From a virus: 64,000 bases of DNA. Numbering within the stretch: position 1 is the first letter of the stretch; each line of letters begins with the position of its first letter. The stretch spans positions 32,686 to 96,685 of IMG/VR virus record IMGVR_UViG_3300038465_000158. One strand, given 5' to 3'. Made by a program: the position numbers and the translations under genes. The notes below the pieces were generated by a model, which saw nothing but the letters and a program-made list of their open reading frames with translations, searched no databases and was not told the origin of the DNA. Below, in pieces: positions 2,239-38,417 of this stretch.

Positions 2239-2434
2239 GAAGTGCACGGCTTGTTCCAAGCCGGGCAGATTTGTTACAGGATACTGCGGTTCCTGCAACG
2301 CTGCATGTTGTGAAAAGCATTTGAAATGGTCGACTGAAGAAGCAGAGTGGCGTTGTCCACGGTGCTTACGAGATGAGAAGACGCGAAAGAAGCAAGTGAG
2401 CACAGGGATAGGTTTATCGCCACACCTTACGTAA
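2222..2434 (+). CDS. Cys-rich zinc-finger protein
   Basis: CTAC..CGSC..CCEKH..CPRC; fills the gap in the operon. Confidence 0.55.
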   Translation: MGQPGKKCTACSKPGRFVTGYCGSCNAACCEKHLKWSTEEAEWRCPRCLRDEKTRKKQVSTGIGLSPHLT

Positions 2435-3330
2435 CTCCAGAGATTCTCATCAATGCTCCAACTGGAATCTCCTGGAGCACAATCCCTGATTTCGATTCGG
2501 ACCCTGATGCGCAACTAGCAGAACAAACAAATATGTGTTGGCGTGCATCGATGTGGATTGACGGTTATTGCAACCAACCGTTGAGGTCGACAATTGATAC
2601 TGAGGAATTTCTTGCTCCGAACTATCGAGTGACAATCGACAATAACGGTCTCGTTCGAGTACTTGTCTCGCGGTGGCCAGTCACGCAAATCATCGGAGCG
2701 CAGTACACTTCGTCACTCTCTGCTGGGCCGACTTGGTCGCCTATTCCTCTCAATGCAATGTACATAGAAGAGGGACTGACAATCTCTGGTGGCATCTCAA
2801 TCGAGTCCGCGGCTGGTTCTGCCGCAATTGACATCACTCCTGGTTACATTTCGTGGTTCAATGGGCGTCGCGGCATTCGACTTCAACTCACGTACGTCAA
2901 CGGTTGGAGTCATGCTGGTATCGTCAACTCGGTTGACATCGGAGCGACGTCGTTACTTGTCGATGACTGCACTGGCATGACGTCTGCTGACGCTGGTCGA
3001 GGCATGTGGATTTATGACGGCAACGCAACTGAATTCGTTGCTGTCACCGCAGTGAGTGAAACATCTGGGCCTGGAACTGCGACACTCGCTTCTCCAGGAA
3101 CTGTCTATCCGCACAATGGAAATGCATCTCAGCCAATTGTCATCTCTGCTCTCCCCGCTTCAATTCAGCAGGCAGCAATTCTCCATTGCTCGATGCAAGC
3201 ACTTGTTCGTGGAGCTACAGCGACGACCGTTCAGAATCAACCTGGTTCGACGCAAAACACTGGTGACCCTGGTACAGGAATTCTCAAAGACATCAAAGAC
3301 ATTTTGATGCCGTACCGTCGAGTCATCTAG
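2416..3330 (+). CDS. Head-to-tail adaptor (probable ATC start at 2416; first ATG at 2533)
   Basis: Frame open upstream of 2533 encodes ATPYVTPEILINAPTGISW; C-terminal LPASIQQAAI...ILMPYRRV is typical of adaptors. Confidence 0.7.
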   Translation: MATPYVTPEILINAPTGISWSTIPDFDSDPDAQLAEQTNMCWRASMWIDGYCNQPLRSTIDTEEFLAPNYRVTIDNNGLVRVLVSRWPVTQIIGAQYTSSLSAGPTWSPIPLNAMYIEEGLTISGGISIESAAGSAAIDITPGYISWFNGRRGIRLQLTYVNGWSHAGIVNSVDIGATSLLVDDCTGMTSADAGRGMWIYDGNATEFVAVTAVSETSGPGTATLASPGTVYPHNGNASQPIVISALPASIQQAAILHCSMQALVRGATATTVQNQPGSTQNTGDPGTGILKDIKDILMPYRRVI

Positions 3331-3809
3331 TGGGAGTCAATACTGTCCAACTGAAGGCACAAAGTCTTATTGACGGACTTGAAGCACCGTTGAACAAATC
3401 GCCGCTAGTAGTCTACATCTCTCCGCCGAATCCAGGTGAACTCAAAGGGCCAGCAGCGTACATTTGGGCGACTATCGGTGATAACCAACGGCGGACTGCT
3501 TCACGAGGCCCAGGATTCCGCAAGACGATATGGACAGTGTCCACATGGTTGATGTCACCAGGAAGCGCGACGAGTAAAGACCGCGACCAAGCATTTGCTT
3601 GTCTTATTGATGCTGTCATCGAAGCATGGGTGACCGCAGAGATGCCAGTGACTGTGATTGATCCGCAGACTGGTAGAAAAATTCAGCAAGTGGCTATCGG
3701 TGAGAAGTTCACCGTCAATCAGTCGCCTGTCCATGCGCTTCAAGACCAACGACTTTTTCTTTACGAATGTCTTCTTGAATTTCAAATCGAAGAATCGTCG
3801 ACACCATAA
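3330..3809 (+). CDS. Head-tail joining / tail terminator-like protein
   Basis: Size and position between adaptor and tail tube; coupled start/stop. Confidence 0.55.
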   Translation: MGVNTVQLKAQSLIDGLEAPLNKSPLVVYISPPNPGELKGPAAYIWATIGDNQRRTASRGPGFRKTIWTVSTWLMSPGSATSKDRDQAFACLIDAVIEAWVTAEMPVTVIDPQTGRKIQQVAIGEKFTVNQSPVHALQDQRLFLYECLLEFQIEESSTP

Positions 3810-4273
3810 TGGCGAATGTCGGCGACACGTTCAATACTCGTGTCGAGGGGGTCGAACGTATACGGTTCGAGTGGCAAGTTACTCAACGACGCGCTGCCGC
3901 AAAAATCATTCCGATTGCGCTACTCGAACTGAAGCGAGCAGCGCCAGTTAGCAGCACAAAACCTGACGCTGGACGGTTCAAGCACTCAATTGGATTTCGA
4001 GTGATGTCCCTTGGTGGATTGTTCAGTCTCAATTTCGTCTCTACAGCCCCGTACGCAAAGTATGTTCTCGAACCAACAGCAGGAGGCGCGAACATCGAAC
4101 CGCAGAATACTTTAGCATTGCGCTGGAAGAATGGAGTCGGCGATTACGTTTTTGCTAGTTCTGTCATTCGCGGCTCGACTCGAGGGAATGATTTCAATAA
4201 GCGAGTCGCGGCAAAATTGGAACCAGTGATTATGGAAGCTTTCAAAAGTTCAATCACAATCATCACAACCTAA
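3809..4273 (+). CDS. HK97 gp10-like neck protein
   Basis: APV...GRFKHSI...STAPYAKYVLE...LALRW pattern; position. Confidence 0.6.
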   Translation: MANVGDTFNTRVEGVERIRFEWQVTQRRAAAKIIPIALLELKRAAPVSSTKPDAGRFKHSIGFRVMSLGGLFSLNFVSTAPYAKYVLEPTAGGANIEPQNTLALRWKNGVGDYVFASSVIRGSTRGNDFNKRVAAKLEPVIMEAFKSSITIITT

Positions 4274-4290
4274 TGAGGTAATATCTACAC

Positions 4291-4575
4291 ATGGCTCAAC
4301 TTCGCTACATAGGGAGTGTCGATAAGACACTGATTGATGTTGCGGCACTCACGAACGGAAAAGTCTTTGAAATTGACGATGCAACAGCAGCACGTCTTCT
4401 CAATGCTTTTCCAAATGAGTACGAAACAGTTGATGGAACCTCGGTCAAAACCAAGGCGCCGCAAAAAGAAGAAGCAACTACGCCGCCTCCTGCCAACACT
4501 TCACCAGAGGACAACGCTTCAAAGTCAACCAACGAGGATTCTGCGGATGCAACCGTCGAATCTCCAACAACGTAA
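4291..4575 (+). CDS. Hypothetical virion-module protein with disordered acidic tail
   Basis: ORF with GAGGT RBS, upstream of the tail tube gene. Confidence 0.65.
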   Translation: MAQLRYIGSVDKTLIDVAALTNGKVFEIDDATAARLLNAFPNEYETVDGTSVKTKAPQKEEATTPPPANTSPEDNASKSTNEDSADATVESPTT

Positions 4576-4588
4576 CTAAGAGAGGTTT

Positions 4589-5563
4589 CTGCCCACAACC
4601 ATCGTTGAACAGTACGGTTCGCTATCTGCAGTAGGTGTAGCAACGGAGGCCACGTTTGGCACTCCAGTCGTTCCTACATCATTTGTCCCGTTCACCGATG
4701 TCACCCTGGAAAGGGATCCTGGTGTCTTCTTTCCTCAAATCATCATGGGTGTTCGAGACGTCAATGTCTTCTCCCTTCGCGGTGAGTTTAAGAACGCAGG
4801 CGACGTCAGTGCTCCGTTCTTTCCAACCAATGGTCTGGAAATCTTGGCCGCGGCTATCGGCACAGATGTTGTCACTGGAACGAGTCCGCATTACCACCAC
4901 ACGTTCAGTCCAGCGAACGTTCTCAATTCGCTGACGGTTGAGAAAAACCTCGGTGGTTACCAGTCGCTCCAGTTCACTGGAACACGAGTCGGTAAGTACA
5001 GCATCAAGGCAACGACTGGCGACACGGAAACTGAGTTCACTGCTTCGTTCATCGGCAAGGATGCCAACGTCCTCGATACTCCTTCTTCGCCAATTACAAT
5101 CGTCAACGAGAATCCATTCGTTTTTGCTGAGGCCTCGATTACGTTATTCGGCAACCTCACGGCGCAAGTCACTGCAATCAACATCGACATCGATAACGGT
5201 TTGAAGCCGACGTATACGTTCAACCAGTCGCATGACCTTGAATTTCTGTCGCCTCTCACAAGGCACATCACTGGTTCGTTGACCGTGGTCTTTGACAGTT
5301 TGGATGATACCGACTGGGGCTACTACACCAAGATGATTGACGGTACGTACGGTGCTCTTGTCGCAGATTGGACGCATGCTGATACTGGTGCTGAGTTGAC
5401 CGTCACATTGCCAAAGATTTTCCTGACGAAGTACGCCGATGACGTGAAGATGGACAGTATCATTATGTCGACACTGGACTTTGAAGCGGTGTACGACTTG
5501 ACTGCATCTCCGCCTCACTCGATTTCGGTCCTCGTCATCAACGCAATTGCAACTGCTTACTAG
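4589..5563 (+). CDS. Major tail (tube) protein (probable CTG start at 4589; first ATG at 4745)
   Basis: In-frame upstream segment encodes GSLSAVGVATEATFGTPVVPT, a typical tail-tube N-terminus; SLTVEK and RHITGSLT motifs; precedes chaperones and tape measure. Confidence 0.8.
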   Translation: MPTTIVEQYGSLSAVGVATEATFGTPVVPTSFVPFTDVTLERDPGVFFPQIIMGVRDVNVFSLRGEFKNAGDVSAPFFPTNGLEILAAAIGTDVVTGTSPHYHHTFSPANVLNSLTVEKNLGGYQSLQFTGTRVGKYSIKATTGDTETEFTASFIGKDANVLDTPSSPITIVNENPFVFAEASITLFGNLTAQVTAINIDIDNGLKPTYTFNQSHDLEFLSPLTRHITGSLTVVFDSLDDTDWGYYTKMIDGTYGALVADWTHADTGAELTVTLPKIFLTKYADDVKMDSIIMSTLDFEAVYDLTASPPHSISVLVINAIATAY

Positions 5564-5595
5564 GACGCAAACGATATAAAGACAGAGGAAGAATC

Positions 5596-6060
5596 ATGGC
5601 AGGAAAAGGTTTCTTAGCACTATTTAACACGCCTGACCGCATTGAGGTCACGGATGACGGTGCTTTTTGGATTGACATCAAAACATCACTTACCGCGGAT
5701 GACTACGAGCATGCTCAGCGAGTTCTTTTCGGCAAGATGGCAATGAAAGGCGGCGACCTTTCAGCGACGCCAGACACAATTTCATATCAGCATGAACTCG
5801 TGTTCCGTGCGGTTGTTGACTGGAACTTGACCGACGAGGACGGCGACTTGCTTCCGCTCGAACCAGAAAAGGCCAAGCATGATTCAATCCGTCGAATCCC
5901 ACAATCGATTTTCATCGACTTGTACAACCGAGTCAATAAAGCGTCTTCGGCGCGCTCAAGTGGTGATGAGCTCCAGTTTCGTGATGACGGTTCAACAGAG
6001 TCTCCGGGGGACGAAAGTTCAACTGGAGAAGTACCCGTCGCTCCAGAAGTTTCTGATTGA
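5596..6060 (+). CDS. Tail assembly chaperone (G-like)
   Basis: Between tube and tape measure; VVDWNLTDEDG..LP motif. Confidence 0.8.
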   Translation: MAGKGFLALFNTPDRIEVTDDGAFWIDIKTSLTADDYEHAQRVLFGKMAMKGGDLSATPDTISYQHELVFRAVVDWNLTDEDGDLLPLEPEKAKHDSIRRIPQSIFIDLYNRVNKASSARSSGDELQFRDDGSTESPGDESSTGEVPVAPEVSD

Positions 6061-6217
6061 GAGCGCTCTCTACGAGCACGTCGGCTTAAACTTTGAGACT
6101 CTCAAATCTAGGCCTTTCACAGAGGTTCTTGACTACGTCACAATTGCTGATCTGATCGCGAAAGAACGAATCTATCAACAGAAGAAGCATGCTGCTGAGG
6201 CGGCGCGGAAGAAATAA
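5978..6217 (+). CDS. Tail assembly chaperone extension (T-like), +1 frame relative to the upstream chaperone
   Basis: Overlapping ORF whose stop overlaps the tape-measure ATG; candidate shift site CAG TTT CGT at 5974-5982. Confidence 0.65.
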   Translation, partial: FVMTVQQSLRGTKVQLEKYPSLQKFLIESALYEHVGLNFETLKSRPFTEVLDYVTIADLIAKERIYQQKKHAAEAARKK

Positions 6218-9200
6218 TGGCACTTCAAGACCTTACTCTTCTTATGGGTATCGAAGCCCGGGAAAATGTTGTTGGCGTTTGCCAGAGAATTTCTGATGAG
6301 GTCGAACGTGTAACTGGCCTGTTTAAGGACATGGGAGGCACCGCATCTGAGGCTGGTGACCTTATGACGACAGCCATGAGCGATCCAGAGACAACCGCTG
6401 GCATTCTCCAAGCAAGAATGACTGAACTCGCTGGAGCAACTGAACGTCTAACAATCGCAGAGAAAGAGTTTAGAGACGCGACACTCGCGGCGTCGGATAT
6501 GAGTGATGTCGACGCCACTGCACTCGATCGCCAAGCAGCCGCAACAAAAGAGTACGAGGGTGCACTTGTTGTAGCGACAAAAGCGCAACATGATGCTCGA
6601 GATGCGACTGAAAAGAATATGGCGGCGCAAGATCTTGCGAACAAGTCAACTGATGAGTCCGCCGGTTTTCTTGCAGCGGCAGGAACTAAGTTAGACAAGA
6701 TCGGTCCCGCAGCCGCTGTGGCCACTGCCGGAATCATTGGAATTGCGTATGAATCAGCTAAAGCTGCTTCTAAATTCAATGATGACATCATCACGGTTGC
6801 GAATAGCGCAAACATCTCAATGAAGGCTGCAAATAACATTGGTCAAGCATTTCTTGACATGTCGACAAAATCAATATTCACGGCGAGTGACATCACGCAG
6901 TCGTTCGGAAAAGTAGCCGGCCAACTCACCCAAGTTGCTGGTCATGCTTTGACGGTAAAGCAATCAGTTGCGTTCATGAATGTCGCAATGCAAGCGGCTG
7001 CTGCATCTGGGCAACCGCTCTCGACTATCACATCAAACCTCGCAAAGATCATGCAGCAGTACCACATCAGTTTGAAGCAAGCAGCCGCTGGCGAAACCGC
7101 GCTCTACAACGAAGGTCGACTCACTGGCCAAAACATGAATATGGTAACCCAGCAAATCACTCGTTTGAAGGGTCAGTTGGGCATTCTTGCTCCGAACATT
7201 GAGCAAACTGCCTCGTTCATGCTTGACTTGACAGATCACGGTATGAATGCTCGCCGAGCATCTCAAGCCTTGAGCAGTTCGCTGAACACGCTTTTGAAGA
7301 CGAGCCACTTGACAGTGCCGACGATGAGTGAGATGGACGCAGCGCTGAAGAAGCTTCCGCCAGATTTGCAGCAGTACGGTAAAGCACTTCTTGACGGCAA
7401 AGAGAAAGTTTCCGCATTTGACCAACAAATGAAGAATTTTGGCAAAGGTGAACTTCATGGCACCGTCATGGCGAGTTATTTGAAGTCGTTCGAGGGTCTT
7501 GCTACTCAAGCAAAGTCAAGCATCGGCACAATCAACGCGCTGAAACTCTCGCCTGTTCAAGAGGAGTTGTCGCATCTCGGAGTAAGTGTCTTCAACAGTA
7601 AGGGCAACTTCATTGGTTTGGCTGGCGTGCTCGCGAAGGTTGGTCCGAAGCTTAATGATATGCATAACAAGTCGAAAGAACTGACTGCTGCTACGATTCT
7701 GTTTGGCACTCAAGCCAAAGCACTTCTCCCGACTATTCTCGCCGGTGGAGTTGGTTACGAAAAAGCAGCAAAGGCGATCAACGATCAACGAGCAATGACA
7801 GAAGCATCACGGCGAGCGCAGAATAACTATGAAGCCGACATGAAGAAAGTCGACCATGCAATCGAGATGGTCCGCATCGAACTCGGCCAAGCATTCCTGC
7901 CTATTCTCGAAAAAGTCATGAAAGAGTTCGTCAAGATCGTCACACCGATTGCTGACTGGATTCAGAAGAACAAGAAGCTTACAGCCGAAATTCTGGTTGT
8001 CGTTGGCGGAATCACTGGTCTTATTACCGTACTTTGGGCGACGCACAAAGTGATGAGCGTCGTGAGCAACACGTTCGTTAACTTTGGAAAAGATGTTCAG
8101 AAGGCATGGACTGCCGGAGGAAAACTCGTCTCTGGCATCAAGGACATAATCACGAAGATGACCGGTCTGAAGGCGGCAAACGAAGAAGCTGCCGGAACAC
8201 AGGATGCCTTGGCTGGCTCAACTGAAGGTCTTGCTGTCGCACAAGGAGAGGGCGCCGCTGCAACAGAAGCACTCGGCGATGCATCGCTTGCCGCTGCTCC
8301 AGAAATTGATGCCGCTGGCGCTCCAGTTCTCGCAATCGTTGCTGCCATCGCACTTCTTGCGATCGCCATCTATGAGCTGGTGAAGCACTGGAAGACGGTT
8401 TGGGGCGCGATTAAAGATGTCGCAACAGCAGTATGGGATGCATTGAAGACGGCATGGAATGACTTCTGGGGCTTTCTCAAAGCAGCATGGGATACGCTCC
8501 TTAGCGTCGGTAAAGACATCTTTCATACGTTGGGTATCGGCATACTCGTCGTTCTCGGACCCATTGGCCTTATCATCATTGCAGTCAAAGAACTCGTCAC
8601 TCACTGGACGACGATCTGGCATACAGTTCTTTCAGTCTTTGACACGGTCGCATCTGGCATTTCGAAAGGCGTTCACGACATCATCAGCTTCTTCACTGGT
8701 ATGCCGTCGAAGATACTCGGTTCAATTAGCAAACTTGGGAGCATGCTTCTCAACTTTGGCGAAACGTCTGTCAAGGATATGGGCAAAGGCATTGTCGCTG
8801 GCGCAAAAGCAATTTGGGACTTCTTCACAGCACTTCCTGGCAAAATTCTCTCGCTCGCTGACGGCGTGCTCGATGATATGCTTCACTTTGGTGAGAACAT
8901 CGTGAAGCGAATTATCAGCGGCATCGAGAACCTGGCGAGCGGAATTGGTAAGGCAGTCATGGATGCCATCAAACACATTCCTGGCATTGGTGGACTTCTC
9001 GCTAAGGGACTTGGTTATGCAGGTGATGTCGTGCACGGAGCGGGTGTAGTTATCGGCGGTATAGGGCACGGAATCTCTAGTTTGTTTCATCATGACGGTG
9101 GAATCATCAACGGAACTCCTGGGTCTGACGTTCCAGCGATTCTACAAGCTGGAGAAGGGGTCTTTACACGAGGGCAGATGCGAGCGCTTGGTGGCATGGT

Positions 9201-21234: not shown

Positions 21235-21983
21235 TGGAAATTATCGACACCTTTCATTTCAACAATGAAATTGAACTTCTGGATTTGAGAGTTCACATTC
21301 TAGAAGACATCGTCGATAAATTCATTGTCAAAGAGGCAGATGAAACGTTCACGAGAAACCCTAAGAAGTGTTTGGCGGCTCTTTACGATCATCCAAAGGT
21401 ATTCACACATAAAGTCGAATTACCGGATGGCACACCGTGGGAGAGAGACACGTATCAGAAAACAGCAAAAGTCAATCTCGATGAGTTCGGCATTTCGTCT
21501 GACGCTCTCATCATGATGAGCGATGTCGATGAGATGCCGAGTGTCGAAGCAATTCATCGAATGACAACGGAACTTAAATATGGAATGCTCTGCAGATTTA
21601 TGCAGCGACCATTTCAACGGTTTCTCAATGTCGAACAAATTGGGCAACCGTGGAGTGGCACACGAGTTTGTCTCGCTTCCACATATCATTTGCTCAATGA
21701 CGGTAATTTCTCGCATCATATGCCGGCGTATTCAATCGGTAAGGGCGGTTGGCATTGGTCATTTCTCGGCGATACTGAAATGATTATTGACAAGATCAAG
21801 TCATATGGCCACACTCAATTCAATACACCAGAGACAATTCGACTTATCGACGAACGAGTAGCGAACAGTCAAGATGTTCTCGGTCGCACATTCCGATTTC
21901 GTACAGTTGACATTGATGAAACCTACCCAGTGTATATACGTGAAAACCAGGATAAATTGCGCCACTTGATCAAGTTAAAATGA
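21234..21983 (+). CDS. GT17-like glycosyltransferase (GnT-III/MGAT3-like)
   Basis: IIDTFHFNNEIELLDLR..L...VD.F...E...TF, SDVDEMP, and GGWHWSFLG....I..KIKSYGH motifs. Confidence 0.85.
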   Translation: MEIIDTFHFNNEIELLDLRVHILEDIVDKFIVKEADETFTRNPKKCLAALYDHPKVFTHKVELPDGTPWERDTYQKTAKVNLDEFGISSDALIMMSDVDEMPSVEAIHRMTTELKYGMLCRFMQRPFQRFLNVEQIGQPWSGTRVCLASTYHLLNDGNFSHHMPAYSIGKGGWHWSFLGDTEMIIDKIKSYGHTQFNTPETIRLIDERVANSQDVLGRTFRFRTVDIDETYPVYIRENQDKLRHLIKLK

Positions 21984-22004
21984 TTCCATGACCTGAGGAG
22001 GTTT

Positions 22005-23411
22005 ATAGCGACATTCGATCGGAAGACGGCAGGTGTAGGTGCATTAAATTGGGCAAAACTTCAGAACGGCAAACCGTACATCTGGGGAGGCACCGGACCA
22101 GAAGGTTTTGATTGCTCTGGTCTTACGGAAGAGGCATATCTTCATGTAAATGTCCAACTTCCTCGCACCACGTACGAACAATGCAAATTGTACGTTCTTC
22201 CGAAGGACGCAAAGCTCGAACCTGGAGATTTGCTCTTCATTGCGGGCTCTGACGGCACGGTGGCTGAACCTGGCCATGTAATGATTTTCATCGAAGACGG
22301 TTGGGTCTTCCAAGCGCCGTTTACCGGCGAAGATGTTGGTAAGTACGCGTACGACACGACTCAGTACGACGTCGCAACACGACCAGCTCTTGCGCTGCCT
22401 CTACCAGTTGTTCCACCAACGGTTGAGCAATTGGCCGCGGCAAAAATGGTGCTTCTTCCAAATCAAGCTGCCGCATTTCTCGCACGGCGAAATGGATGGA
22501 CTGTTCGCTACTGGATTCATCAACAGTTCCTTGCGGCGCCTCCAGGATTTCCAACTACTGGTCTGGCGGAATATGCGAACATTCACTATGAGAGTCCTCG
22601 TCCGGCACGGCAAGCTGGGAAGCGCGGAGTTCGCATCAATGAACTTCATCTTCCGGACCTCGAACTTCACAAATTCAAATCGACTGCACCACTCCCGCCA
22701 TTACCAACAAGCGGCGATGTCCGTTGCAGTCTCGAAAACATCGGGATGCTCGGCAATGATGAGTTTGGCGACTGTGGTCCAGCCGCTACCGAGCACATTC
22801 GCATGATGCAAGCAGCAATTTCGACTATTAACGGTCAAACGACGTGGGTTCCTGGGTTCCGAATTCCTCACACCGCGTACACTGAAGGCCTCTATTTTGC
22901 GTACGGTCGAGCGATGGGAGAAGGCGGTCTTCATCCCGACCAGGGAGTTGCAAATGCAACTTGGTTGCTTTGGCTGTACCAGCACAAAATCATCGAAGGA
23001 TTTGCTGAAGTCAACGTCAATGCATCGTCTGGTCTCATCAATGGCGACAATGCTGCTGCTCGAGCTCATCGTGCGATGATTGAGTTCCAAGGATGTCTCG
23101 TTGCCGTCAGTCTCACCGATGACGCTGAACAACTGTTCCAGGAAGGTCTTCCTTGGACGACGGCAAACGGCGAAACTCCAGATCCGCAAGAAGGTCATGA
23201 CATTGCTCTCGGTGCGTACAGTCCGACAGGAGATACGTTCGGGACTTGGGGCGCATGGGAAGAGTCAACTATTGACTGGGACAACGAATGCATCGGCGAA
23301 TGCTGGGTCATCGTCACCAAGGAACTTGCTGAGCGAAGTGGTTACAATTTCGCTGCTATGACTGCTGTGCTGGATACTCTCGTGGACGCGCATCTTCCGG
23401 CTGCGGCGTAA
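22005..23411 (+). CDS. Endolysin-like protein: N-terminal NlpC/P60 plus C-terminal papain-like cysteine peptidase (probable ATA start at 22005)
   Basis: GKPYIWGGTGPEGFDCSGL lies in frame upstream of the TTG at 22188, then PGDLLF...GHV; second domain MLGNDEFGDC...GHDI...TWG; GAGGAGGT RBS at 21995-22002. Confidence 0.8.
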   Translation: MATFDRKTAGVGALNWAKLQNGKPYIWGGTGPEGFDCSGLTEEAYLHVNVQLPRTTYEQCKLYVLPKDAKLEPGDLLFIAGSDGTVAEPGHVMIFIEDGWVFQAPFTGEDVGKYAYDTTQYDVATRPALALPLPVVPPTVEQLAAAKMVLLPNQAAAFLARRNGWTVRYWIHQQFLAAPPGFPTTGLAEYANIHYESPRPARQAGKRGVRINELHLPDLELHKFKSTAPLPPLPTSGDVRCSLENIGMLGNDEFGDCGPAATEHIRMMQAAISTINGQTTWVPGFRIPHTAYTEGLYFAYGRAMGEGGLHPDQGVANATWLLWLYQHKIIEGFAEVNVNASSGLINGDNAAARAHRAMIEFQGCLVAVSLTDDAEQLFQEGLPWTTANGETPDPQEGHDIALGAYSPTGDTFGTWGAWEESTIDWDNECIGECWVIVTKELAERSGYNFAAMTAVLDTLVDAHLPAAA

Positions 23412-24825: not shown

Positions 24826-25467
24826 ATGTCACCACTCACTTACGAAGGCGAGACTGCAGTCGCCTATCCAGCAGTATTCGGTGGAGTCGCTGCTCCAGCA
24901 ATATACTACGTCGGGCTGCAGACAAGTGAGATCTATCCTGGAGCAAGTCAAAGCATCGCGAATGGCGCAGTAATTATCCCAACAGCATTTGACACATTTA
25001 GCGAACCAGGAACTGGCACTAATAGAATTTTTGTCTGTTCAACAGCAGGGACAACCGATGTAGCTGAGCCAAATTGGGACGCTGTCGTATCTGGTGGAAC
25101 GATACTTGACGGCAGTGTCATCTGGCAAGATGTTGCGTCAACAACATCACCGTTTTGGCTGAGTTCTACGCCAGTCTTTAACGAAGTTTCTGCATCAGAA
25201 TATGCACGAGTTGAGTATGACAACAATCAAACAAATTTTCCTTCGCCAAGCGGTTCAAACCCGACCGTAGGCACAAATGCGAATATCATCGGGTTTGCGA
25301 CATCATATGTTGCATGGGGTACTCTTGCCGCAGTCACATTTCATGACGCGTACAGCGGCGGCAATGTAATCTCATTTGCGTACCTTTCAAAGCATTTGAC
25401 AATTAGCGGCGCTGGAATCACACCAAGTATCCCAGCGCTAACGGGACTTACGCTTACTGTCTCATAA
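24826..25467 (+). CDS. Virion structural / fibre-associated protein
   Basis: YYVGL...EVS..EYARV...N...I.F..A..WGT...HDA.SGGN pattern, with an inserted CSTAGTT..EP.W..DGSVIW module. Confidence 0.65.
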   Translation: MSPLTYEGETAVAYPAVFGGVAAPAIYYVGLQTSEIYPGASQSIANGAVIIPTAFDTFSEPGTGTNRIFVCSTAGTTDVAEPNWDAVVSGGTILDGSVIWQDVASTTSPFWLSSTPVFNEVSASEYARVEYDNNQTNFPSPSGSNPTVGTNANIIGFATSYVAWGTLAAVTFHDAYSGGNVISFAYLSKHLTISGAGITPSIPALTGLTLTVS

Positions 25468-25530
25468 AAATACAGTGCTTCGGATGTTAATATTCAAAGT
25501 AATGGTTGTTGTCCACCGCATAGGAGATTT

Positions 25531-26661
25531 ATTTTCGTAGAACTCGGTAACAAGTCCGCAGCCTTCCGGGATGAGAAGACTGGAGAAATGGTTTCGCATC
25601 TTGACCGGCTTGGTGGAGCACCTACGGTCACGTATGCCACTGTTGGCCATGTGAATGCTGGACTCCATGACAGTGGCATTGAAATTCCGAAGTTCAAGAC
25701 ACACTTGTACGAATCTGTCATTATGAACAAGGGCGTCACGAACTTTGACGGTGCTGGCGTTACTGAAGGAGCTGGCGCTGCCGCCCTTTGCGACTTGGTG
25801 CACCCAGACGGTTCGTGGATGGCGAACTCAACGGACGCACGTCCGACGTGGGTATGGTCCGACGATCCAGACTTCGGTAAGTTGCTTTCTGCTTACTACG
25901 AAGTTCCTTACGGTCGACCAGATGACTTGTTCTTAACGCATCACACGCAGTTTGGCCCTCCTGGGTCGACTCCTCCTTCAGTTTCGCCAGCAGTCGCTCT
26001 TATCAAGGACATCACGAATCTCTTGGTCAACACTGGCCGAGACATGTGGGCCCAGGGCCAGGGTCGTTCGCAAGTAGTTCTTGCGCAGCAAACAGCAACT
26101 GCGGCTGGTACAACGTCGATTACTGGAACGGGCACACCGTTCACCGCATCTGCGTACATCGGAATGATCGTGGTGGACAACTCGACTGGAGTTTGGGGAA
26201 ACATCCAGTCGAACACAACTTCAGTCTTGACTGTCGACCGTTGGTACAACCCCGCCACTCCTGGTGGTGCTGCTGCCACCACACCTGGCGCAACTGACAA
26301 GTTTACGATTGTTCAGGCTGTCTCACCGGCGCAGTTCATGGGAATCACCGCGAACGCGACAGCGGCAGGAGCCACAGACACTCAGTTGCCATCAGAAATC
26401 GTTACTGGTGGCGGTGGACTTGTTCGAGCCGTCACCACGTACGCGCACTCGGCCGGCACGAACACGTACACGTCGGCCAACACATTTACTGCGAACGGTT
26501 CTGACTCACTTCCAGTCACCATTGCGAAGATGGGTCTGTTCAACTCAATGGTGGTCGCTTCGACGATCAATATGTGGTTTGAGACGTTGCTGAATGCAAC
26601 AGCGACTCTTACCATTTCCGGCGACGCACTCACGATCACGGACACCGTCACAGGGTCTTAG
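25531..26661 (+). CDS. Virion structural protein (probable ATT start at 25531; first ATG at 25588)
   Basis: AGGAGA-TTT-ATT then FVELGNK in frame; T/A-rich C-terminal half with capsid-like codon usage. Confidence 0.65.
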   Translation: MFVELGNKSAAFRDEKTGEMVSHLDRLGGAPTVTYATVGHVNAGLHDSGIEIPKFKTHLYESVIMNKGVTNFDGAGVTEGAGAAALCDLVHPDGSWMANSTDARPTWVWSDDPDFGKLLSAYYEVPYGRPDDLFLTHHTQFGPPGSTPPSVSPAVALIKDITNLLVNTGRDMWAQGQGRSQVVLAQQTATAAGTTSITGTGTPFTASAYIGMIVVDNSTGVWGNIQSNTTSVLTVDRWYNPATPGGAAATTPGATDKFTIVQAVSPAQFMGITANATAAGATDTQLPSEIVTGGGGLVRAVTTYAHSAGTNTYTSANTFTANGSDSLPVTIAKMGLFNSMVVASTINMWFETLLNATATLTISGDALTITDTVTGS

Positions 26662-27981: not shown

Positions 27982-27984
27982 TAC

Positions 27985-31971: not shown

Positions 31972-32001
31972 TTAAATAGAATTGAATCGAGCAAGGAGTT
32001 G

Positions 32002-32325: not shown

Positions 32326-32960
32326 CCGACGATTCTCGTCTCGAATCACTTGGACAATTCACGCCAGAAGGAGTTCTCACTCCTGGCTACGGCGACCATT
32401 ACTTATTCCTGGTCGGTCGAGATGATTGCCACGGTATTCTTCACTACCTCATCCCGAAAGAGCGGTTATTCTTCAAATTCAACATGTTCGGATTTGACGA
32501 TGACATCTTGAATGCCGACATCATGGCGCTTTTCCAAGACCCTGGAGTTCGAGTCCAGGCATCGCTTGACCGTTCTCAAGCTGGCGGAGTTCACGAAAAG
32601 AAAATCATCGCCTTGGATGAGCAGAATGACGCGACGGACTTCAGCAACAGTTTTGTAATCTTGGAATCAGCAACTCATCAAATCAGTCATACGAAGGGCG
32701 GTGTGCTGGTCGGCCAAGGTCTCGGCTTTGAAGGGTCGATGAACTGGAGCAACTCTGGAGAAGGAACTGGCATCAGCCTCAAAGCAGATGTAAAGAATCC
32801 TTCAGGTTTCAAAGCACAGAACAATACTCTTCTTGTCTCGGTGAATCCAATTTTCCTGGCGCGATTCTCTGCCCAACTCGATGCTGAACATCAGATTGGA
32901 ATTGCTCAAAATGCAGCGAAGAGTACGGCGGTGAAAGACAATTTCACGCCAGGAACGTAG
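32322..32960 (+). CDS. Phospholipase D-superfamily protein (single HxK motif)
   Basis: MFGFDD, LDRSQ, and SHTKGGVLVG...EGSMNWS...QNN; the Asp of HKD is absent. Confidence 0.7.
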   Translation: MTDDSRLESLGQFTPEGVLTPGYGDHYLFLVGRDDCHGILHYLIPKERLFFKFNMFGFDDDILNADIMALFQDPGVRVQASLDRSQAGGVHEKKIIALDEQNDATDFSNSFVILESATHQISHTKGGVLVGQGLGFEGSMNWSNSGEGTGISLKADVKNPSGFKAQNNTLLVSVNPIFLARFSAQLDAEHQIGIAQNAAKSTAVKDNFTPGT

Positions 32961-32988
32961 TGTAAGATTTACCTAGCGCGGTACGAGG

Positions 32989-33483
32989 ATGCAAGATGAG
33001 CCAACTATGATGGACCCCCAGTTTTACAGCCTCTTTGACAAAGGGCGTCAACTTGACTTCGAAGGCTACCTTCTTGCGAGCGCGACCTCGTACACGAATA
33101 AAAAGCCTCGATGGTTCGTTGTCAGCATCTACAAGACTCTCGGCGGAAAGTACATCGTTTCTGGAATGGGTCGAAGTGACATTGTTCACCGCCCGGACTG
33201 CTCCCAAATGAAGGACAATAATCCCCTTCTTCGACTACCGGAGACTCGGTCGGTGCAATGCGACACGTGTAGACCGAATCTTCATGAGAAAGTCGTCCAT
33301 GAAGTCAACCGTGAATGGGCTCAAGTCTCTGATGACCCGAAAGCAATTATTGAACGTCTTCGACTCAAAGACAGCGACGGCGTCTGGTACATACCGACAA
33401 CATCTTTGACGGCGCTTCTTGAGGCAGCCGAAAAAGATGAAGGAATTAAGTTCGCGTTCTACACACCGCAACACATTGAATGA
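32989..33483 (+). CDS. Hypothetical protein (His/Cys motif)
   Basis: RWF..SIYKT..G.Y, H..DC...C.TC.P; GAGG RBS. Confidence 0.6.
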   Translation: MQDEPTMMDPQFYSLFDKGRQLDFEGYLLASATSYTNKKPRWFVVSIYKTLGGKYIVSGMGRSDIVHRPDCSQMKDNNPLLRLPETRSVQCDTCRPNLHEKVVHEVNREWAQVSDDPKAIIERLRLKDSDGVWYIPTTSLTALLEAAEKDEGIKFAFYTPQHIE

Positions 33484-33512
33484 TATAGTTATAACACGAG
33501 TAGTCAAGGACG
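33481..33512 (+). promoter_or_regulatory. Extended -10 promoter plus AAGGACG start-associated motif
   Basis: TGATATAGT at 33481-33489; AAGGACG at 33506-33512. Confidence 0.55.
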
Positions 33513-33519
33513 GTAAGAT

Positions 33520-34356
33520 GTGCTGATATTTTTGGAAGGCGCTGACGGAACGGGGAAGACCACCCTCGCAAATGAGTTGCTAGAATTTTTGGGTGGACCG
33601 GAACATGCTGAAATCCTTCATCGAGGCGTGCCAGTCAGTCACATTCTTGACGAGTACGAACTTCCTCTTTATAACTACCACACGTTCGAGACAAAGTCAA
33701 TCATCTGCGACCGCTGGCATATCGGTGCTGATGTGTACGGACCACTCAAACGAAATGACGGTGGCATCGACCCAGTCATTGGCTGGCACATGGACTCGTT
33801 TTTCAAAGCCAAAGGCGCGTATCTTGTCTACACCGAGATGCCGTTGACCGAACTCGCTGCTCGAGTCATTGAACGCGGTGATGACTACATTGACCCAATT
33901 GAGATTCCAGCCATTATCGCTCGATATCGAGAAGCAATTTCGATGACGACACTTCCTCTCTATGGTTCGACAACTGGATTTCATAATGCTGAAGCCGTGG
34001 CAATTCTTGCTAGTTCCATGGAAATTGGAGCAGCTCAAATCGGCATGTTCAAATCGTACGTCGGTCCACGTCGACCAGTGAAGTTATATGTCGGCAAATC
34101 TCCGACTCCTATCGCGTTCATGCCGTATGAGAATACACCGTCGTATGACATCATCAAGACTCTCGGTGCTCTAAATCCAGTTCATGCCGGATTTATTGAT
34201 TGCCGAGAAGATTTAGCGAGAGCATGGGACGCTCTCTACAACCCGTTCGTCATTGCACTCGATGAAGATGCAGACGCCGCATGTCACAGTGCCCAGATAC
34301 CATTTAACAAGTCAAAGGACGAAGACCCATGGAAATTCACAACAACCATCTCCTAA
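33520..34356 (+). CDS. Thymidylate/dNMP kinase with C-terminal extension
   Basis: LIFLEGADGTGKTT P-loop, ICDRW, RGDDY. Confidence 0.85.
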   Translation: MLIFLEGADGTGKTTLANELLEFLGGPEHAEILHRGVPVSHILDEYELPLYNYHTFETKSIICDRWHIGADVYGPLKRNDGGIDPVIGWHMDSFFKAKGAYLVYTEMPLTELAARVIERGDDYIDPIEIPAIIARYREAISMTTLPLYGSTTGFHNAEAVAILASSMEIGAAQIGMFKSYVGPRRPVKLYVGKSPTPIAFMPYENTPSYDIIKTLGALNPVHAGFIDCREDLARAWDALYNPFVIALDEDADAACHSAQIPFNKSKDEDPWKFTTTIS

Positions 34357-35204
34357 TTGAAGATGTTCGCTGGGACTATCCTGAGCTATTGAAGATGCTT
34401 CGGGACCACGGAGAGGAGACAAGTCCTCGCGGCCAACCGACTCGAGAAATCATCGACGTAGTCATGAAACTTGACCCTCACTCTGCTATCGTCCATGGAA
34501 TCAATCGTCGACTGAGCATGAAACTCATCAGCATGGAATCACTCACTCTTATCACTGGCACCTCATATCCACAACGGCTCATCAAAGCTGCTCCTAACAT
34601 GGCACGATACTTGGACGGTGAAGTGTTTCACGGACATTATGGAGTACGAATTGGCGCTCAACTTGCTGGAGTCATCAATCGTCTAAAGGCGGACAAAGAT
34701 ACTCGCCAAGCACTCATCACAATTTGGGACCCAATTCTTGACTTGTTCAACGGAGTCCAACCAAAGGACGTTCCATGCACCACAATTCTTCAGTTCTTGA
34801 TTCGCAAAGACCAACTCGTACTTCATGTCACGATGCGAAGCAATGACGTATGGTGGGGCACTCCCCATGACTGGGGTCAATTCTCGCAACTCCAACTCGC
34901 AATCGCCAATGTTCTCGGTATCGAGGCTGGACCGTACTACCACCACGCTGTCTCGTTTCATCTCTACGAAAAAGACTTCGACAAAATTGATTTACTCACG
35001 CAACCGATTCAAGTACTTGAACGACATGACGGTCTTGGTTGGGAGAACATCAGTCTCGAAGATTTGAAGACGGTTGCAGAGACACTCATTGAATGTCCGA
35101 TAGTCGTATCCCCCAATGGATTCACAGAAGAGTGGCATAAAAAGCAACAAATAGCAATCGATGTAATGGATGAGAGGTCTGATGCAACGCATATCTTGGG
35201 ATGA
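34329..35204 (+). CDS. Thymidylate synthase-family enzyme with cytosine-type Asp (dCMP methylase/hydroxymethylase-like)
   Basis: SPRG..TRE, YG.RI, DTRQA, KDVPCT, MRSNDVWWGTPHD, SFHLY. Confidence 0.85.
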   Translation: MEIHNNHLLIEDVRWDYPELLKMLRDHGEETSPRGQPTREIIDVVMKLDPHSAIVHGINRRLSMKLISMESLTLITGTSYPQRLIKAAPNMARYLDGEVFHGHYGVRIGAQLAGVINRLKADKDTRQALITIWDPILDLFNGVQPKDVPCTTILQFLIRKDQLVLHVTMRSNDVWWGTPHDWGQFSQLQLAIANVLGIEAGPYYHHAVSFHLYEKDFDKIDLLTQPIQVLERHDGLGWENISLEDLKTVAETLIECPIVVSPNGFTEEWHKKQQIAIDVMDERSDATHILG

Positions 35205-35670
35205 GCTCTGGATGGGAACGGCGAAGTTGGTCGGTCAACGAAGTCTTTGCTCTCGTGCTCAATACGGCGCCGTCATCGTTTCCGAAGACAACAGGATTCT
35301 GTCAGTCGGCTACAACGGTCCACCAGCAAATGCTGGTTACATCTCTGGATGCGAGAATTGGTGCGTTCGAGCAATGAATGCAAGAGAACTTGGTGAAGAC
35401 CATGTCGATCCACATCACGGTGATTGTCATGCTATTCACGCTGAGATGAACTCAGTTCTTCGAGCAGGAAATCTTTGGCTTGAAAAGGCACCGACACTCT
35501 ACGTCAATGCAGTCACGTGCCTTCGCTGCGCTCTCATGACATCGAATTCTGGCGTTCGTCGCATCGTCATGCTTGTCACGCCGTATGAGGAAAAGCGTGA
35601 CCCGATAGCAACGGAAGCGCTGTTCAAGCAGTACGACATCAAGGTCACCGTCATCAAGGAGCAAGATTGA
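35182..35670 (+). CDS. dCMP deaminase
   Basis: RSLCSRAQYGAVIV, GYNGPP, HAEMN, TCLRC. Confidence 0.9.
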   Translation: MQRISWDELWMGTAKLVGQRSLCSRAQYGAVIVSEDNRILSVGYNGPPANAGYISGCENWCVRAMNARELGEDHVDPHHGDCHAIHAEMNSVLRAGNLWLEKAPTLYVNAVTCLRCALMTSNSGVRRIVMLVTPYEEKRDPIATEALFKQYDIKVTVIKEQD

Positions 35671-37451
35671 GTCTCGGAAACCCCAACCTAGAAATTGTCA
35701 ACTCAGTAGAGTCCGCCGGTAAATTCATGACATGGTTAGGAGAACGGCGAGACGTTCTAGGATTTGACACAGAAACCACCGGACTTGACCCTAACATTGA
35801 CAAACTTCGTCTTGTGCAATTCGGCGACCTCGGCACCGGCTGGGCGATTCCTTGGAGCCAATGGGGCGGAGTTTCATTAGAAGCAATTTCTAAGTACCGA
35901 GACAAGCCTATGGTCGGTCACAACGCGAAATTCGATGTGAGATTCCTCGAGTTCCACGGTAATATTCGTATGCCCCGTGAGAACATCCATGACACTCGAT
36001 TGATGTGCCATATTCTTAATCCCGCTGGTTCGACGGCATTGAAGAGCAACGCGGCACGATTGGTCGACCCGACGGCGGCATACGCCAGCAAGCAACTTGA
36101 TGAGGTCATGAGTCAGCAGCACTGGACGTGGGCGACTGTCCCGGTCGACTTCCAGCTTTACTGGTGCTACGGTGCGCTTGATACTGTGTTGACGGCGCAT
36201 CTTTACGACAAACTCAAGCCGCAAATTGACCAAGGTTACAAGGACGTCTACGACCTCGAACAGGCAGTCCAATGGGTTCTTGCCGATATGGAGGCCAGGG
36301 GCTCTAGAATCGATCTGGAGTACACTCGTGACAAATCAGCACAACTCGCCGCATATGCAGATTCAATTGAAGATTGGTGCAAAACTACGTACGGCTTTGG
36401 GCCTGGTCAAAACACGAAAGTCGCGCAGCAACTCAATGCTCTCGGCGCGGACCTCGGCCGTCGTACGACGACTGGTGCATTCAAGTTAGACGAGTCAGTT
36501 CTTGAAGAAGTTCTCGGTTGCGAGTTCGAAGACGCAAAAACGAGGACCGACTTCACAGAAGCGCAGGAATTGGCGTATCGAGTACTCGGTCGACGAAAAG
36601 CTGAGAAGATTCGGTCGACGTATCTCGACCCATTCCTCGATTTTGTCGATGCAGACGGCTTTGTCCATCCTCGTATGAATCAAGTCGGGGCGCGTACGGG
36701 CCGCATGTCAATGGAACGACCAGCACTTCAAACTCTTCCGCGAGGACGAGTCGTTCGTGACTGCTTCATTCCTCGAGATGGGAACGGTCTTCTCAGCGCA
36801 GACTTCGACGGCATTGAGATGCGATGCCTTGCTCATTACGCTCAAGACCCCGCTCTCATTGACGCTATCAACTCCGGTGATATTCACCTTGCCACCGCTC
36901 GTCAAGTCTACAAAGACAACACGATTGAAAAGAAAGACATTCGACGGCAAATCGCAAAGAGCGTCGGGTTCGCCAAGATTTACGGCGCAGGCCCTGAGAA
37001 AATTGCGTGGACGGCTGGAATCTCACTTGACGATGCAAAACGCTTTCTTGCTCAGTACGACGTAATGTTTCCTGGAGTCAAGACGTTCCAGAATACCGTC
37101 GCTCAAGTTGTCAAGCAGCGCAAACAAGAGACAGGAATCGCGTCGGTCCATACACCGATTGGTCGACTTGAACTCGCGCCAGATGACCGTGACTATGCTC
37201 TCGTCAACGCTCTCATTCAGGGTATGGCAGCAGACGTCTTCAAGGAAGCGCTTGTCCGACTTGACAATTCAGAGGCTGGGCAATTTCTCATGCTGCCGGT
37301 CCATGACGAAATCATTGCTGATGTACCATTGGAACTAATGGATGACGTTAAAGTCACAATTCAACGAACCATGTCGGACGACAGATGGGCAGTGCCATTG
37401 ACAGTTGGCATTGATGGTCCGCTCGAACGCTGGGGTGCAAAATATCATTAA
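35667..37451 (+). CDS. polA: DNA polymerase family A with 3'-5' exonuclease
   Basis: DTETTG, HNAKFD, YGALD exonuclease motifs; RTGRMS, ADFDGIEMR, R..AK...F..IYG and VHDE polymerase motifs. Confidence 0.95.
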   Translation: MSLGNPNLEIVNSVESAGKFMTWLGERRDVLGFDTETTGLDPNIDKLRLVQFGDLGTGWAIPWSQWGGVSLEAISKYRDKPMVGHNAKFDVRFLEFHGNIRMPRENIHDTRLMCHILNPAGSTALKSNAARLVDPTAAYASKQLDEVMSQQHWTWATVPVDFQLYWCYGALDTVLTAHLYDKLKPQIDQGYKDVYDLEQAVQWVLADMEARGSRIDLEYTRDKSAQLAAYADSIEDWCKTTYGFGPGQNTKVAQQLNALGADLGRRTTTGAFKLDESVLEEVLGCEFEDAKTRTDFTEAQELAYRVLGRRKAEKIRSTYLDPFLDFVDADGFVHPRMNQVGARTGRMSMERPALQTLPRGRVVRDCFIPRDGNGLLSADFDGIEMRCLAHYAQDPALIDAINSGDIHLATARQVYKDNTIEKKDIRRQIAKSVGFAKIYGAGPEKIAWTAGISLDDAKRFLAQYDVMFPGVKTFQNTVAQVVKQRKQETGIASVHTPIGRLELAPDDRDYALVNALIQGMAADVFKEALVRLDNSEAGQFLMLPVHDEIIADVPLELMDDVKVTIQRTMSDDRWAVPLTVGIDGPLERWGAKYH

Positions 37452-38004
37452 GAAATACGTTGTTTACGGTCTAGTTGACCCAAGGACAAACGAAATTCGC
37501 TACGTCGGCAAAACTCGACAGTTGCTTAAAAATCGGCTTAAGAAGCATTATGAAGACGCAAGTAATCCTCAAAATATTCGTCATAAGGCACAATGGTTTA
37601 GAGTTTTAAAGCAAAATGGGTTAAGACCCTCTGTAAAAATTCTACAAAAATGCGCAGATAACGAAAAAGCATGCGCTGCAGAAATTTGGTGGATTAGTCA
37701 CTTAAAATCAACTGGTGTGGATTTAACTAATCTCACGTCTGGCGGAGACGCAGGCGACGGTTGGCATCACACAGAAGAAGTAAAAAAGAAAATGAGTTTG
37801 CTAAGCACTGGTAGAAAACGTTCTCAAAAGTCTATTGAAGCAACTGCCGCAGCACATCGCGGTAGAAAACGTTCTGAAGAAACGCGGCAAAAAATTAGTG
37901 TAGCACTTCGTGGCAAAAATTTATCGCAACAAACTCGGCAAAAAATGAGCGAAACACATCTAGCAAGAAATCAAAAACTTCGTGAAAATGGTTTATCAAA
38001 GTAG
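37435..38004 (+). mobile_element. Free-standing GIY-YIG homing endonuclease with NUMOD3-like repeats
   Basis: VYGLVDPRTNEIRYVGKT, E..WI, LTN..SGGD, HTEEVKKKMS and GRKRSEETRQKIS repeats; AT-rich; exact start uncertain (37405-37435). Confidence 0.85.
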
Positions 38005-38417
38005 TGGCTGTTGACCCTGGTGGCATCACTGGTTATGTTATTTGGACAGACGGTGAACGCGTAGAAAATGAGCTTAAAGCGAATGAGTTTGTGCAATTTA
38101 TCGCTGATTTAGTTGAGCAAAATAAAATTGATTGCATTGTATGCGAACGTTTTATAGTAACTTCTCAAACTGGCAAGTTTTCACAAGCAAATTGGTCACT
38201 CGAACAAATTGGTGTTCTTAAATTTTTAAGTGCACGATTTCATATTTCGTTTGTTCTTCAAAATGTAAGTGATGCGAAACGGTTTGCGTCAGACGAACGA
38301 TTGAATAGTGTCGGATGGACAAAACCAAAAGGAGCAGGGCACGCAAGAGATGCGCAACGGCATTTACTTTTATATCTAGTCAATCAAAAACTTTTGGATT
38401 TGAAATTACTCATATGA
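37995..38417 (+). CDS. RuvC-like Holliday junction resolvase (probable ATC start at 37995; GTG at 38004)
   Basis: KVVAVDPGGITG, IVCERF, HARDAQRH. Confidence 0.8.
   Translation: MKVVAVDPGGITGYVIWTDGERVENELKANEFVQFIADLVEQNKIDCIVCERFIVTSQTGKFSQANWSLEQIGVLKFLSARFHISFVLQNVSDAKRFASDERLNSVGWTKPKGAGHARDAQRHLLLYLVNQKLLDLKLLI

What the first reader, a model, noticed from the sequence alone, without database searches (positions are those of the whole stretch)
2405..38010. Five genes appear to initiate at near-cognate codons, each directly after a purine tract plus TTT
Seen: adaptor GATAGG-TTT-ATC(2416) GCC ACA; tail tube AGAGAGG-TTT-CTG(4589) CCC ACA; endolysin GAGGAGG-TTT-ATA(22005) GCG ACA; structural gene AGGAGA-TTT-ATT(25531); RuvC ATGG-TTT-ATC(37995) giving KVVAVDPG. 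In four cases an in-frame stop lies just upstream (2374, 4577, 21981, 37983) and family-typical N-terminal sequence precedes the first ATG/GTG/TTG. The clearest case is the endolysin, whose catalytic DCSG (22110-22121) lies upstream of the first canonical start at 22188. Three sites share AGGTTT-nTn-SCS-ACA. Inference: systematic non-AUG initiation, perhaps for dosage control or as a gate that needs relaxed IF3 discrimination during infection.
Basis: partly seen in the sequence, partly recalled or inferred. Interest (0 to 1): 0.78.

Follow-up and report, generated by a model that had tools for sequence, protein, structure and literature searches.

The report
Phage virion genes start at CTG/ATA
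In this uncultured 97-kb phage of actinobacteria, eight genes (probable capsid, portal, tail tube, endolysin and others) begin at the weak start codons CTG, ATA, ATC or ATT, always directly after a ribosome-binding site plus TTT; related phages keep this design, so it is inherited rather than an error, and gene finders cut these proteins short.

Summary
All five sites are as described. The whole 96.7-kb phage genome holds three more just upstream of the window: portal, a 747-aa head-module protein and the probable capsid gene.

At four of the eight sites no canonical start precedes the codon in any frame after the nearest stop, so translation must begin there. In related uncultured phages the same aligned position carries ATG, GTG or TTG, or another weak codon.

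Across the mid/low-GC relatives, all 23 distinct CTG/ATH start contexts have TTT at -3..-1, against none of about 60 ATG/GTG starts. TTT appears together with the weak codon in at least two gene families. Actinobacterial infC genes start at ATC, ATA or GTC without TTT, so TTT is not the general host rule.

Best reading: real near-cognate initiation (about 0.8). The inferred mechanism is that UUU strengthens initiator-tRNA binding by pairing with A37/A38.

Earlier scan notes report weak starts in other phages, including this capsid family. None of those I read mentions the TTT rule.

The parts
1..1566 (+). Body of the probable major capsid gene. Its start, AGGAGG-TTT-CTG, lies 248 nt before the window at genome position 32437.
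   Evidence: CTG+TTT is kept in 5 further distinct contexts; L078 has ATC+TTT, L081 has TTG+TTT, and L092 plus about 40 high-GC relatives have ATG/GTG. phrog_13692. Top Foldseek hits are SPO1 capsid chains, but the model is weak.
2405..2418 (+).
   Evidence: Relatives have GTG (G006, G007, G009) or ATG (G002, L058) at exactly this codon, followed by the same A-T-P-Y.
2416..3330 (+). Gene finders would start it at ATG 2533, losing 39 residues.
4579..4591 (+). SD AGAGAGG (4579-4585), TTT (4586-4588) and start codon CTG (4589-4591) of the tail tube gene.
   Evidence: No canonical start precedes the site in any frame after the nearest stop. Relatives: TTT-CTG (G006, G009), TTT-TTG (G007/8), TTT-ATA (G002), TTG/GTG (L014, L016, L017).
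4589..5563 (+). Tail tube gene (Phage_tube_2). The first canonical start, ATG 4745, would remove 52 residues.
21995..22007 (+). SD GAGGAGG (21995-22001), TTT (22002-22004) and start codon ATA (22005-22007) of the endolysin gene.
   Evidence: Stops lie in all three frames within 24 nt upstream, with no canonical start. Relative G001 keeps GAGGAGG-TTT-ATA.
22005..23411 (+). NlpC/P60 endolysin gene. The catalytic DCSG (22110-22121) lies upstream of the first canonical start, TTG 22188.
25522..25533 (+). SD AGGAGA (25522-25527), TTT (25528-25530) and start codon ATT (25531-25533) of a 376-aa gene of unknown family.
   Evidence: G001 has AGGAGA-TTT-ATA, and the 19 codons before the first ATG differ mostly at third positions. 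This site is less secure: GGAGAA-ATG at 25588 is a possible canonical start, and only one relative was found.
25531..26661 (+).
37989..37997 (+). TGG (weak SD), TTT (37992-37994) and start codon ATC (37995-37997) of the RuvC-like resolvase gene.
   Evidence: G001 has GGAGG-TTT-ATA and G006 has GGGAGTTA-ATG at the aligned place. This is the least secure site, because GTG 38004 lies three codons downstream.
37995..38417 (+). RuvC-like Holliday junction resolvase gene.
   Evidence: phrog_1770, phrog_1981.

Best explanation
These genes are translated from true near-cognate start codons (CUG, AUA, AUC, AUU), presumably read by the host initiator tRNA. Each codon sits 3-4 nt behind a strong Shine-Dalgarno core (GGAG/GGAGG/GGAGA) and directly behind UUU. 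The design is inherited within a clade of uncultured phages of actinobacteria with 40-58% GC. In these phages TTG, CTG and ATH replace one another at the same start position as long as UUU precedes them, whereas ATG and GTG starts lack UUU. What is shown here: the position of the start codons, their conservation, and the co-variation with TTT. What is inferred: U(-1) and U(-2) pair with A37 and A38 of the initiator tRNA anticodon loop, the 'extended codon-anticodon' interaction. Together with the strong, close SD, this would offset the mismatch in the codon, so that proteins needed in large amounts can still be made from a weak codon.
For: Sequence: at portal, capsid, tube and endolysin, no canonical start lies between the nearest upstream stop and the site in any frame. 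For portal the stops are within 9-17 nt, leaving only GAG, TTT and CTG as possible codons. Homology: family profiles begin upstream of the first canonical start. Orthologue comparison: adaptor ATC matches GTG/ATG; portal CTG matches TTG/ATG/GTG; tube CTG matches CTG/TTG/ATA/GTG; RuvC ATC matches ATA/ATG; the capsid gene has CTG in 6 distinct contexts and ATC, TTG or ATG in others; the 747-aa gene has ATGGAGA-TTT-CTG-GC invariant in all 4 distinct contexts at 58-62% protein identity. TTT precedes 23 of 23 distinct weak-codon contexts, 5 of 10 TTG and 0 of about 60 ATG/GTG (Fisher p about 5e-21, not phylogenetically independent). TTT co-varies with the codon: adaptor GGAGTAAGA-GTG versus GATAGG-TTT-ATC, and RuvC GGGAGTTA-ATG versus GGAGG-TTT-ATA. 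Two high-GC relatives have YAT-ATA capsid starts, so U(-1) holds in 25 of 25 contexts, against 2 of 15 actinobacterial infC weak starts (p about 9e-9). Independent assemblies from several metagenomes carry the same codons. Literature: U(-1):A37 pairing raises initiation in E. coli, and with a weak start codon in a chloroplast (PMC10018350, which also describes Esposito et al. 2003).
Against: There is no direct evidence of initiation: no proteomics, ribosome profiling or reads were available. Three sites have a nearby canonical alternative: RuvC GTG 38004, the unknown-family gene's ATG 25588, and a GTG 19 codons into the 747-aa gene. A37/A38 pairing explains U at -1 and -2 but not the equally invariant U at -3. 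The host and its initiator tRNA are unknown. Near-cognate codons are very weak in E. coli, so high output from them is an assumption.
Confidence: 0.8

Rival explanations
1. A dedicated factor, rather than simple tRNA-mRNA pairing, reads the SD-UUU-NUN signal. It could be a phage protein that activates late translation, a change to host IF3 or the ribosome during infection, or E-site effects of the UUU triplet. The weak starts would then act as a temporal gate.
For: All three U are invariant, which is more than A37/A38 pairing needs. TTT is absent from host-type infC weak starts, so the rule is specific to the phage clade. All eight genes are virion, lysis or late-type genes.
Against: No IF3, IF1 or deformylase homologue and no initiator-like tRNA is present in the genome, and no candidate factor was identified. 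TTT also precedes some canonical TTG starts at the same positions, which fits a general boost for weak codons.
Confidence: 0.12
2. The proteins start at the downstream canonical codons, and the upstream open stretches are untranslated.
For: Canonical codons exist downstream. For RuvC (GTG 38004) and the unknown-family gene (GGAGAA-ATG 25588) they are close and plausible.
Against: This would delete the endolysin catalytic Cys and 52 residues of the tail-tube fold. The extensions align with relatives from residue 1-7 at 58-87% identity. Relatives place their own canonical start at the weak codon's position.
Confidence: 0.03
3. The proteins arise by frameshift or stop-codon readthrough from upstream genes or mini-ORFs.
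For: SD-like elements 3 nt before a P-site codon stimulate +1 shifting in prfB (own knowledge). An out-of-frame ATG lies 7-10 nt upstream at RuvC and at the 747-aa gene. The endolysin and its upstream gene share a frame, separated by one TGA.
Against: At four sites no canonical start precedes the motif in any frame. Upstream frames differ from site to site. G001 has TAA, not TGA, before its endolysin.
Confidence: 0.02
4. Sequencing or assembly error, or a private start codon such as AGG or UUU read by a phage tRNA.
For: AGG lies in frame two codons before the start at four sites. Earlier scan notes describe phages with AGG starts and a CCU initiator tRNA.
Against: The same codons occur in independent assemblies from many metagenomes. 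The portal frame opens only at GAG-TTT-CTG. The only phage tRNA is tRNA-Asp (GTC). Alignment puts relatives' ATG/GTG on the CTG/ATH codon, not on AGG or TTT.
Confidence: 0.02

Closest known systems
AUU/AUC/AUA start of bacterial infC (IF3) and AUU of E. coli pcnB
   Same: A near-cognate codon behind a Shine-Dalgarno site, read by the normal initiation machinery. The actinobacterial infC genes sampled here also start at ATC, ATA, GTC or GTT.
   Different: infC is a single autoregulated gene kept weak, with SD spacing of 4-9 nt, no TTT, and U at -1 in only 2 of 15 genes. Here about 6% of a phage's genes are affected, including those for the probable capsid, portal and tail-tube proteins, and they share an invariant UUU and a tight SD.
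Extended codon-anticodon (quadruplet) pairing of U(-1) with A37 of tRNAfMet (PMC10018350; Esposito et al. 2003, EMBO J 22:651, read only as cited there)
   Same: U directly 5' of the start codon favours initiation. In the chloroplast petA case it mattered with a weak start codon.
   Different: That effect was measured on reporters and is modest on AUG. Here it would be a natural, clade-wide rule tied to weak codons and involving three U. The pairing itself is not shown here.
Weak start codons in other uncultured phages noted earlier in this scan (e1-5934425, e1-5934426, e1-5974323)
   Same: Capsid, portal and adaptor genes start at ATA, ATC or CTG behind strong SD sites. One note concerns the same capsid family. 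I confirmed ATA capsid starts in two high-GC relatives.
   Different: Those notes, as I read them, describe a long SD and no TTT rule. In the high-GC relatives the context is CAT or TAT, not TTT.

Membership tests
SD-led near-cognate initiation (infC/pcnB type) | No ATG/GTG/TTG available between the upstream in-frame stop and conserved N-terminal coding sequence | tested here: met
   Met for all eight sites. RuvC has a GTG only 3 codons downstream.
SD-led near-cognate initiation (infC/pcnB type) | The weak codon lies where homologues have their canonical start | tested here: met
   (adaptor, portal, tube, RuvC, capsid).
SD-led near-cognate initiation (infC/pcnB type) | Shine-Dalgarno sequence upstream at a workable distance | tested here: met
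   duplex energies of -4.7 to -10.5 kcal/mol at seven sites and -2.2 at RuvC. Spacing is 1-3 nt after the duplex, and such short spacing is also seen at some ATG genes of this phage.
SD-led near-cognate initiation (infC/pcnB type) | Direct proof of initiation, and sensitivity to IF3 | not testable with these tools
Extended codon-anticodon pairing with tRNAfMet A37/A38 | U at -1 (and -2) of the start codon | tested here: met
   25 of 25 weak-start contexts have U at -1, and 23 of 25 have UUU.
Extended codon-anticodon pairing with tRNAfMet A37/A38 | [quoted passage not shown] | not testable with these tools
   This needs tRNA mutants or reporters, and the host is unknown.
Programmed frameshift or readthrough | An upstream ORF with a start codon that runs into the site in another frame or through a stop | tested here: not met
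   at four sites no canonical start lies between the nearest stop and the motif in any frame.
Private start codon with a phage-encoded initiator tRNA | A phage tRNA of initiator type with a matching anticodon | tested here: not met
   only tRNA-Asp (GTC) in G000 and none in six relatives.

The most novel reading that the evidence does not exclude
UUU at -3..-1 is a natural 'licence' that makes CUG, AUA, AUC, AUU and UUG work as efficient and interchangeable start codons. It could act through extra pairing with the initiator tRNA loop or through a phage-specific factor. This phage clade would then use it to drive, and perhaps time, synthesis of its most abundant virion proteins.
Probability: 0.35. 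Interest if true: 0.75.

Novelty: new variant of a known kind. Interest (0 to 1): 0.6.

Why it matters
The proteins in public gene calls for this phage clade are probably truncated: the endolysin would lose its catalytic cysteine and the tail tube 52 residues. The strict coupling of UUU with weak codons, and its absence from ATG/GTG starts and from the infC genes sampled from actinobacteria, gives a simple, testable rule for start-codon strength. It would also be rare natural support for initiator-tRNA pairing beyond the codon. If weak codons in this context are efficient, that changes how start codons should be scored in phage and actinobacterial gene finding. It also offers a compact part for tuning translation.

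Tried and rejected
- Megablast of 5 kb against GenBank phages found no match, and tblastn found only distant relatives.
- The 100 nt before the eight sites share no motif beyond the SD.
- Predicted RNA accessibility of the SD-start region is 0.43 at weak starts and 0.50 at canonical starts, p = 0.3, so there is no difference.
- Searches for IF3_C, IF1 and peptide deformylase in the genome found nothing.
- The idea of an AGG or UUU start with a private tRNA is rejected.
- A viral-contig scan for relatives of the unknown-family gene found only G001.
- The capsid fold model is poor (pLDDT 56). Foldseek gives SPO1 capsid chains only at E about 1e-3, so the capsid label stays 'probable'. PDB sequence searches were empty.
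- Four literature searches on weak start codons in phages found no description of such starts in phage virion genes.
- The two phage WhiB proteins looked too divergent to use for finding the host, so no search was run with them. The genome-contig scan with the endolysin gave only Streptomyces NlpC/P60 hits.
Full report
**What the window is.** The window is the last 64,000 bases of a single 96,685-bp virus record, G000, with 49.8% GC. It carries two WhiB genes, so the host is almost certainly an actinobacterium. The only tRNA is tRNA-Asp. GenBank phages contain no close relative.

**The observation.** All five sites are exactly as written.
- The in-frame stops at 2374, 4577, 21981 and 37983 exist. 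For the fourth site the in-frame stop is TAA at 25465.
- The catalytic DCSG of the endolysin lies at 22110-22121, upstream of the first in-frame ATG/GTG/TTG at 22188.
- Pfam aligns Phage_tube_2 from residue 13 and NlpC/P60 from residue 29 of the open frames. Real coding sequence therefore precedes the first canonical start.

**Extension to the whole genome.** I scanned for TTT followed by CTG or ATH, with a long downstream frame and no canonical start after the upstream stop. This returns eight sites, not five.
- The three extra sites lie just before the window, at genome positions 23798, 30168 and 32437.
- They are AGGAG-TTT-CTG for the portal, GGAGA-TTT-CTG for a 747-aa head-module protein, and AGGAGG-TTT-CTG for the probable capsid gene, whose body fills window 1-1566.
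- Five other ORFs with long start-less leaders turned out to have ordinary SD-ATG starts.

**Excluding recoding and error.**
- At portal, capsid, tube and endolysin there is no ATG/GTG/TTG between the nearest upstream stop and the motif in any of the three frames. For portal and endolysin all three stops lie within 24 nt. No ribosome can arrive by frameshift there.
- Upstream genes lie in different frames at different sites.
- The same codons occur in independently assembled contigs from many metagenomes, so assembly error is not credible.
- Read-level checks were not available.

**Comparative evidence.** I fetched relatives at 45-93% protein identity: G001, G002, G006 (a complete 88-kb genome), G007-G009, and about 80 loci of the capsid family. 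I then compared the aligned start positions.

| Gene | G000 | Relatives at the aligned codon |
|---|---|---|
| Portal | CTG | TTG, ATG or GTG |
| Tail tube | CTG | CTG (G006, G009), TTG (G007/8), ATA (G002), TTG/GTG (high-GC relatives) |
| RuvC | ATC | ATA (G001), ATG (G006) |
| Probable capsid | CTG | CTG in five more distinct contexts; ATC in L078, TTG in L081; ATG/GTG in L092 and about 40 high-GC relatives |
| 747-aa protein | CTG | ATGGAGA-TTT-CTG-GC invariant in all four distinct contexts, although the proteins are only 58-62% identical |
| Endolysin | ATA | ATA (G001) |
| Unknown-family gene | ATT | ATA (G001) |

G006 has one further case, AGGAG-TTT-CTG before a 1498-codon gene. In every family the weak codon sits at the position of the family's start codon.

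**The TTT rule.**
- In the mid/low-GC relatives, all 23 distinct CTG/ATH start contexts have TTT at -3..-1. So do 5 of 10 TTG starts. None of about 60 ATG/GTG starts of the same gene families do (Fisher p about 5e-21; the lineages are not independent).
- Within G000, TTT precedes 8 of 8 weak starts but 1 of 70 unambiguous canonical starts, and T at -1 occurs in only 6 of those 70.
- TTT appears together with the weak codon. For the adaptor, compare GGAGTAAGA-GTG with GATAGG-TTT-ATC. For RuvC, compare GGGAGTTA-ATG with GGAGG-TTT-ATA.
- Two high-GC relatives start the capsid gene at ATA behind CAT or TAT. U at -1 therefore holds in 25 of 25 contexts, while the full UUU is a trait of the lower-GC clade.

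**Host-side control.** I took infC (IF3) loci from about 60 Actinomycetota genomes and analysed 27 of them.
- Many start at ATC or ATA, and some apparently at GTC or GTT. The SD is of the GGAGGTGA type and lies 4-9 nt upstream.
- None has TTT, and only 2 of 15 weak starts have U at -1.
- TTT is therefore not the general actinobacterial context for weak codons. It belongs to these phages.
- Three genomes of that sample (G012, G029, G059) are unpublished.

**Mechanism.**
- Shown: the start positions, the strong SD abutting TTT, and the conservation and co-variation of TTT with weak codons.
- Inferred: the initiator tRNA reads these codons, and U(-1) and U(-2) pair with A37 and A38 of its anticodon loop (loop sequence CUCAUAA, from my own knowledge). 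AUH would then give four contiguous pairs, and CUG a five-position helix with one internal mismatch.
- The literature supports U(-1):A37 pairing. A study of about 45,000 mRNA variants with A37 tRNA mutants showed it in E. coli, and earlier work showed it on a weak start codon in a chloroplast (PMC10018350).
- This does not explain the invariant U at -3, so a further factor remains possible.
- I found no phage IF3, IF1 or deformylase homologue, no shared upstream motif and no difference in predicted RNA accessibility.

Non-AUG initiation is supported. 'Dosage control' is unlikely as a simple reduction, because the affected genes include those for the probable capsid, portal and tube proteins. 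The IF3-gate idea is untested.

**Weakest points.**
- RuvC has a GTG three codons downstream.
- The unknown-family gene has GGAGAA-ATG at 25588 and only one relative.
- The capsid label rests on gene position, a PHROG of unknown function, and weak fold hits to SPO1 capsid chains from a low-confidence model.

**Novelty.** Near-cognate starts are known, for example infC and pcnB and the alternative starts of genetic-code table 11. Earlier notes of this scan report weak starts in other phages, including this capsid family. Four literature searches on weak starts in phages found no description of such starts in phage virion genes, and none of the papers or earlier notes I read mentions a UUU rule. 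I rate this a new variant of a known kind.

Noticed in passing
L157-L186 and L156 (infC loci of Actinomycetota): Many actinobacterial infC genes have no canonical start before the IF3_N domain. They appear to begin at ATC or ATA, and in three genomes at GTC or GTT, 4-9 nt behind a GGAGGTGA-type SD. U at -1 is rare (2 of 15).
   Followed up: partly
window 21980-21996: The endolysin and the gene before it share a frame and are separated by a single TGA (21981). Two tiny ORFs, ATG-ATT-CCA-TGA and ATG-ACC-TGA, sit between them, so all three frames are closed just before the SD.
   Followed up: partly
window 37988-38014; genome 30158-30184: An out-of-frame ATG lies inside the SD (ATGG...) 7-10 nt before the weak start of RuvC and of the 747-aa gene. 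It opens an 8-codon mini-ORF and is conserved in relatives (ATGGAGATTTCTG in all distinct contexts found). It may be only part of the SD, or a competing or coupled start.
   Followed up: partly
genome 23798-27529 (before the window; L021:3798-7526): The portal gene encodes 1243 aa, with a ParB-like nuclease or partition domain near residues 1099-1157 fused to its C-terminal part.
   Followed up: no
window 59997-60320 (-) and 61338-61709 (-): Two divergent WhiB-family genes, which point to an actinobacterial host.
   Followed up: partly
G006:C1:14979-16241 (-) and L018: The tail tube genes of relatives G006 (424 codons from the CTG) and G002 (448 codons) are about 100-120 residues longer than in G000 (324). 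In G006 the match is split into two pieces, which suggests an inserted domain.
   Followed up: no
genome 21131 (before the window): The terminase large-subunit frame is open for 26 codons before its first ATG and contains GAGGGCCC-TTA-ATC. I accepted the GACAGG-ATG start but did not check it against homologues.
   Followed up: no
G006 (-) around 49238: A 200-codon ORF in relative G006 has 36 codons before its first canonical start and a 456-nt gap to the previous gene. There is no TTT motif, and its start is unresolved.
   Followed up: no
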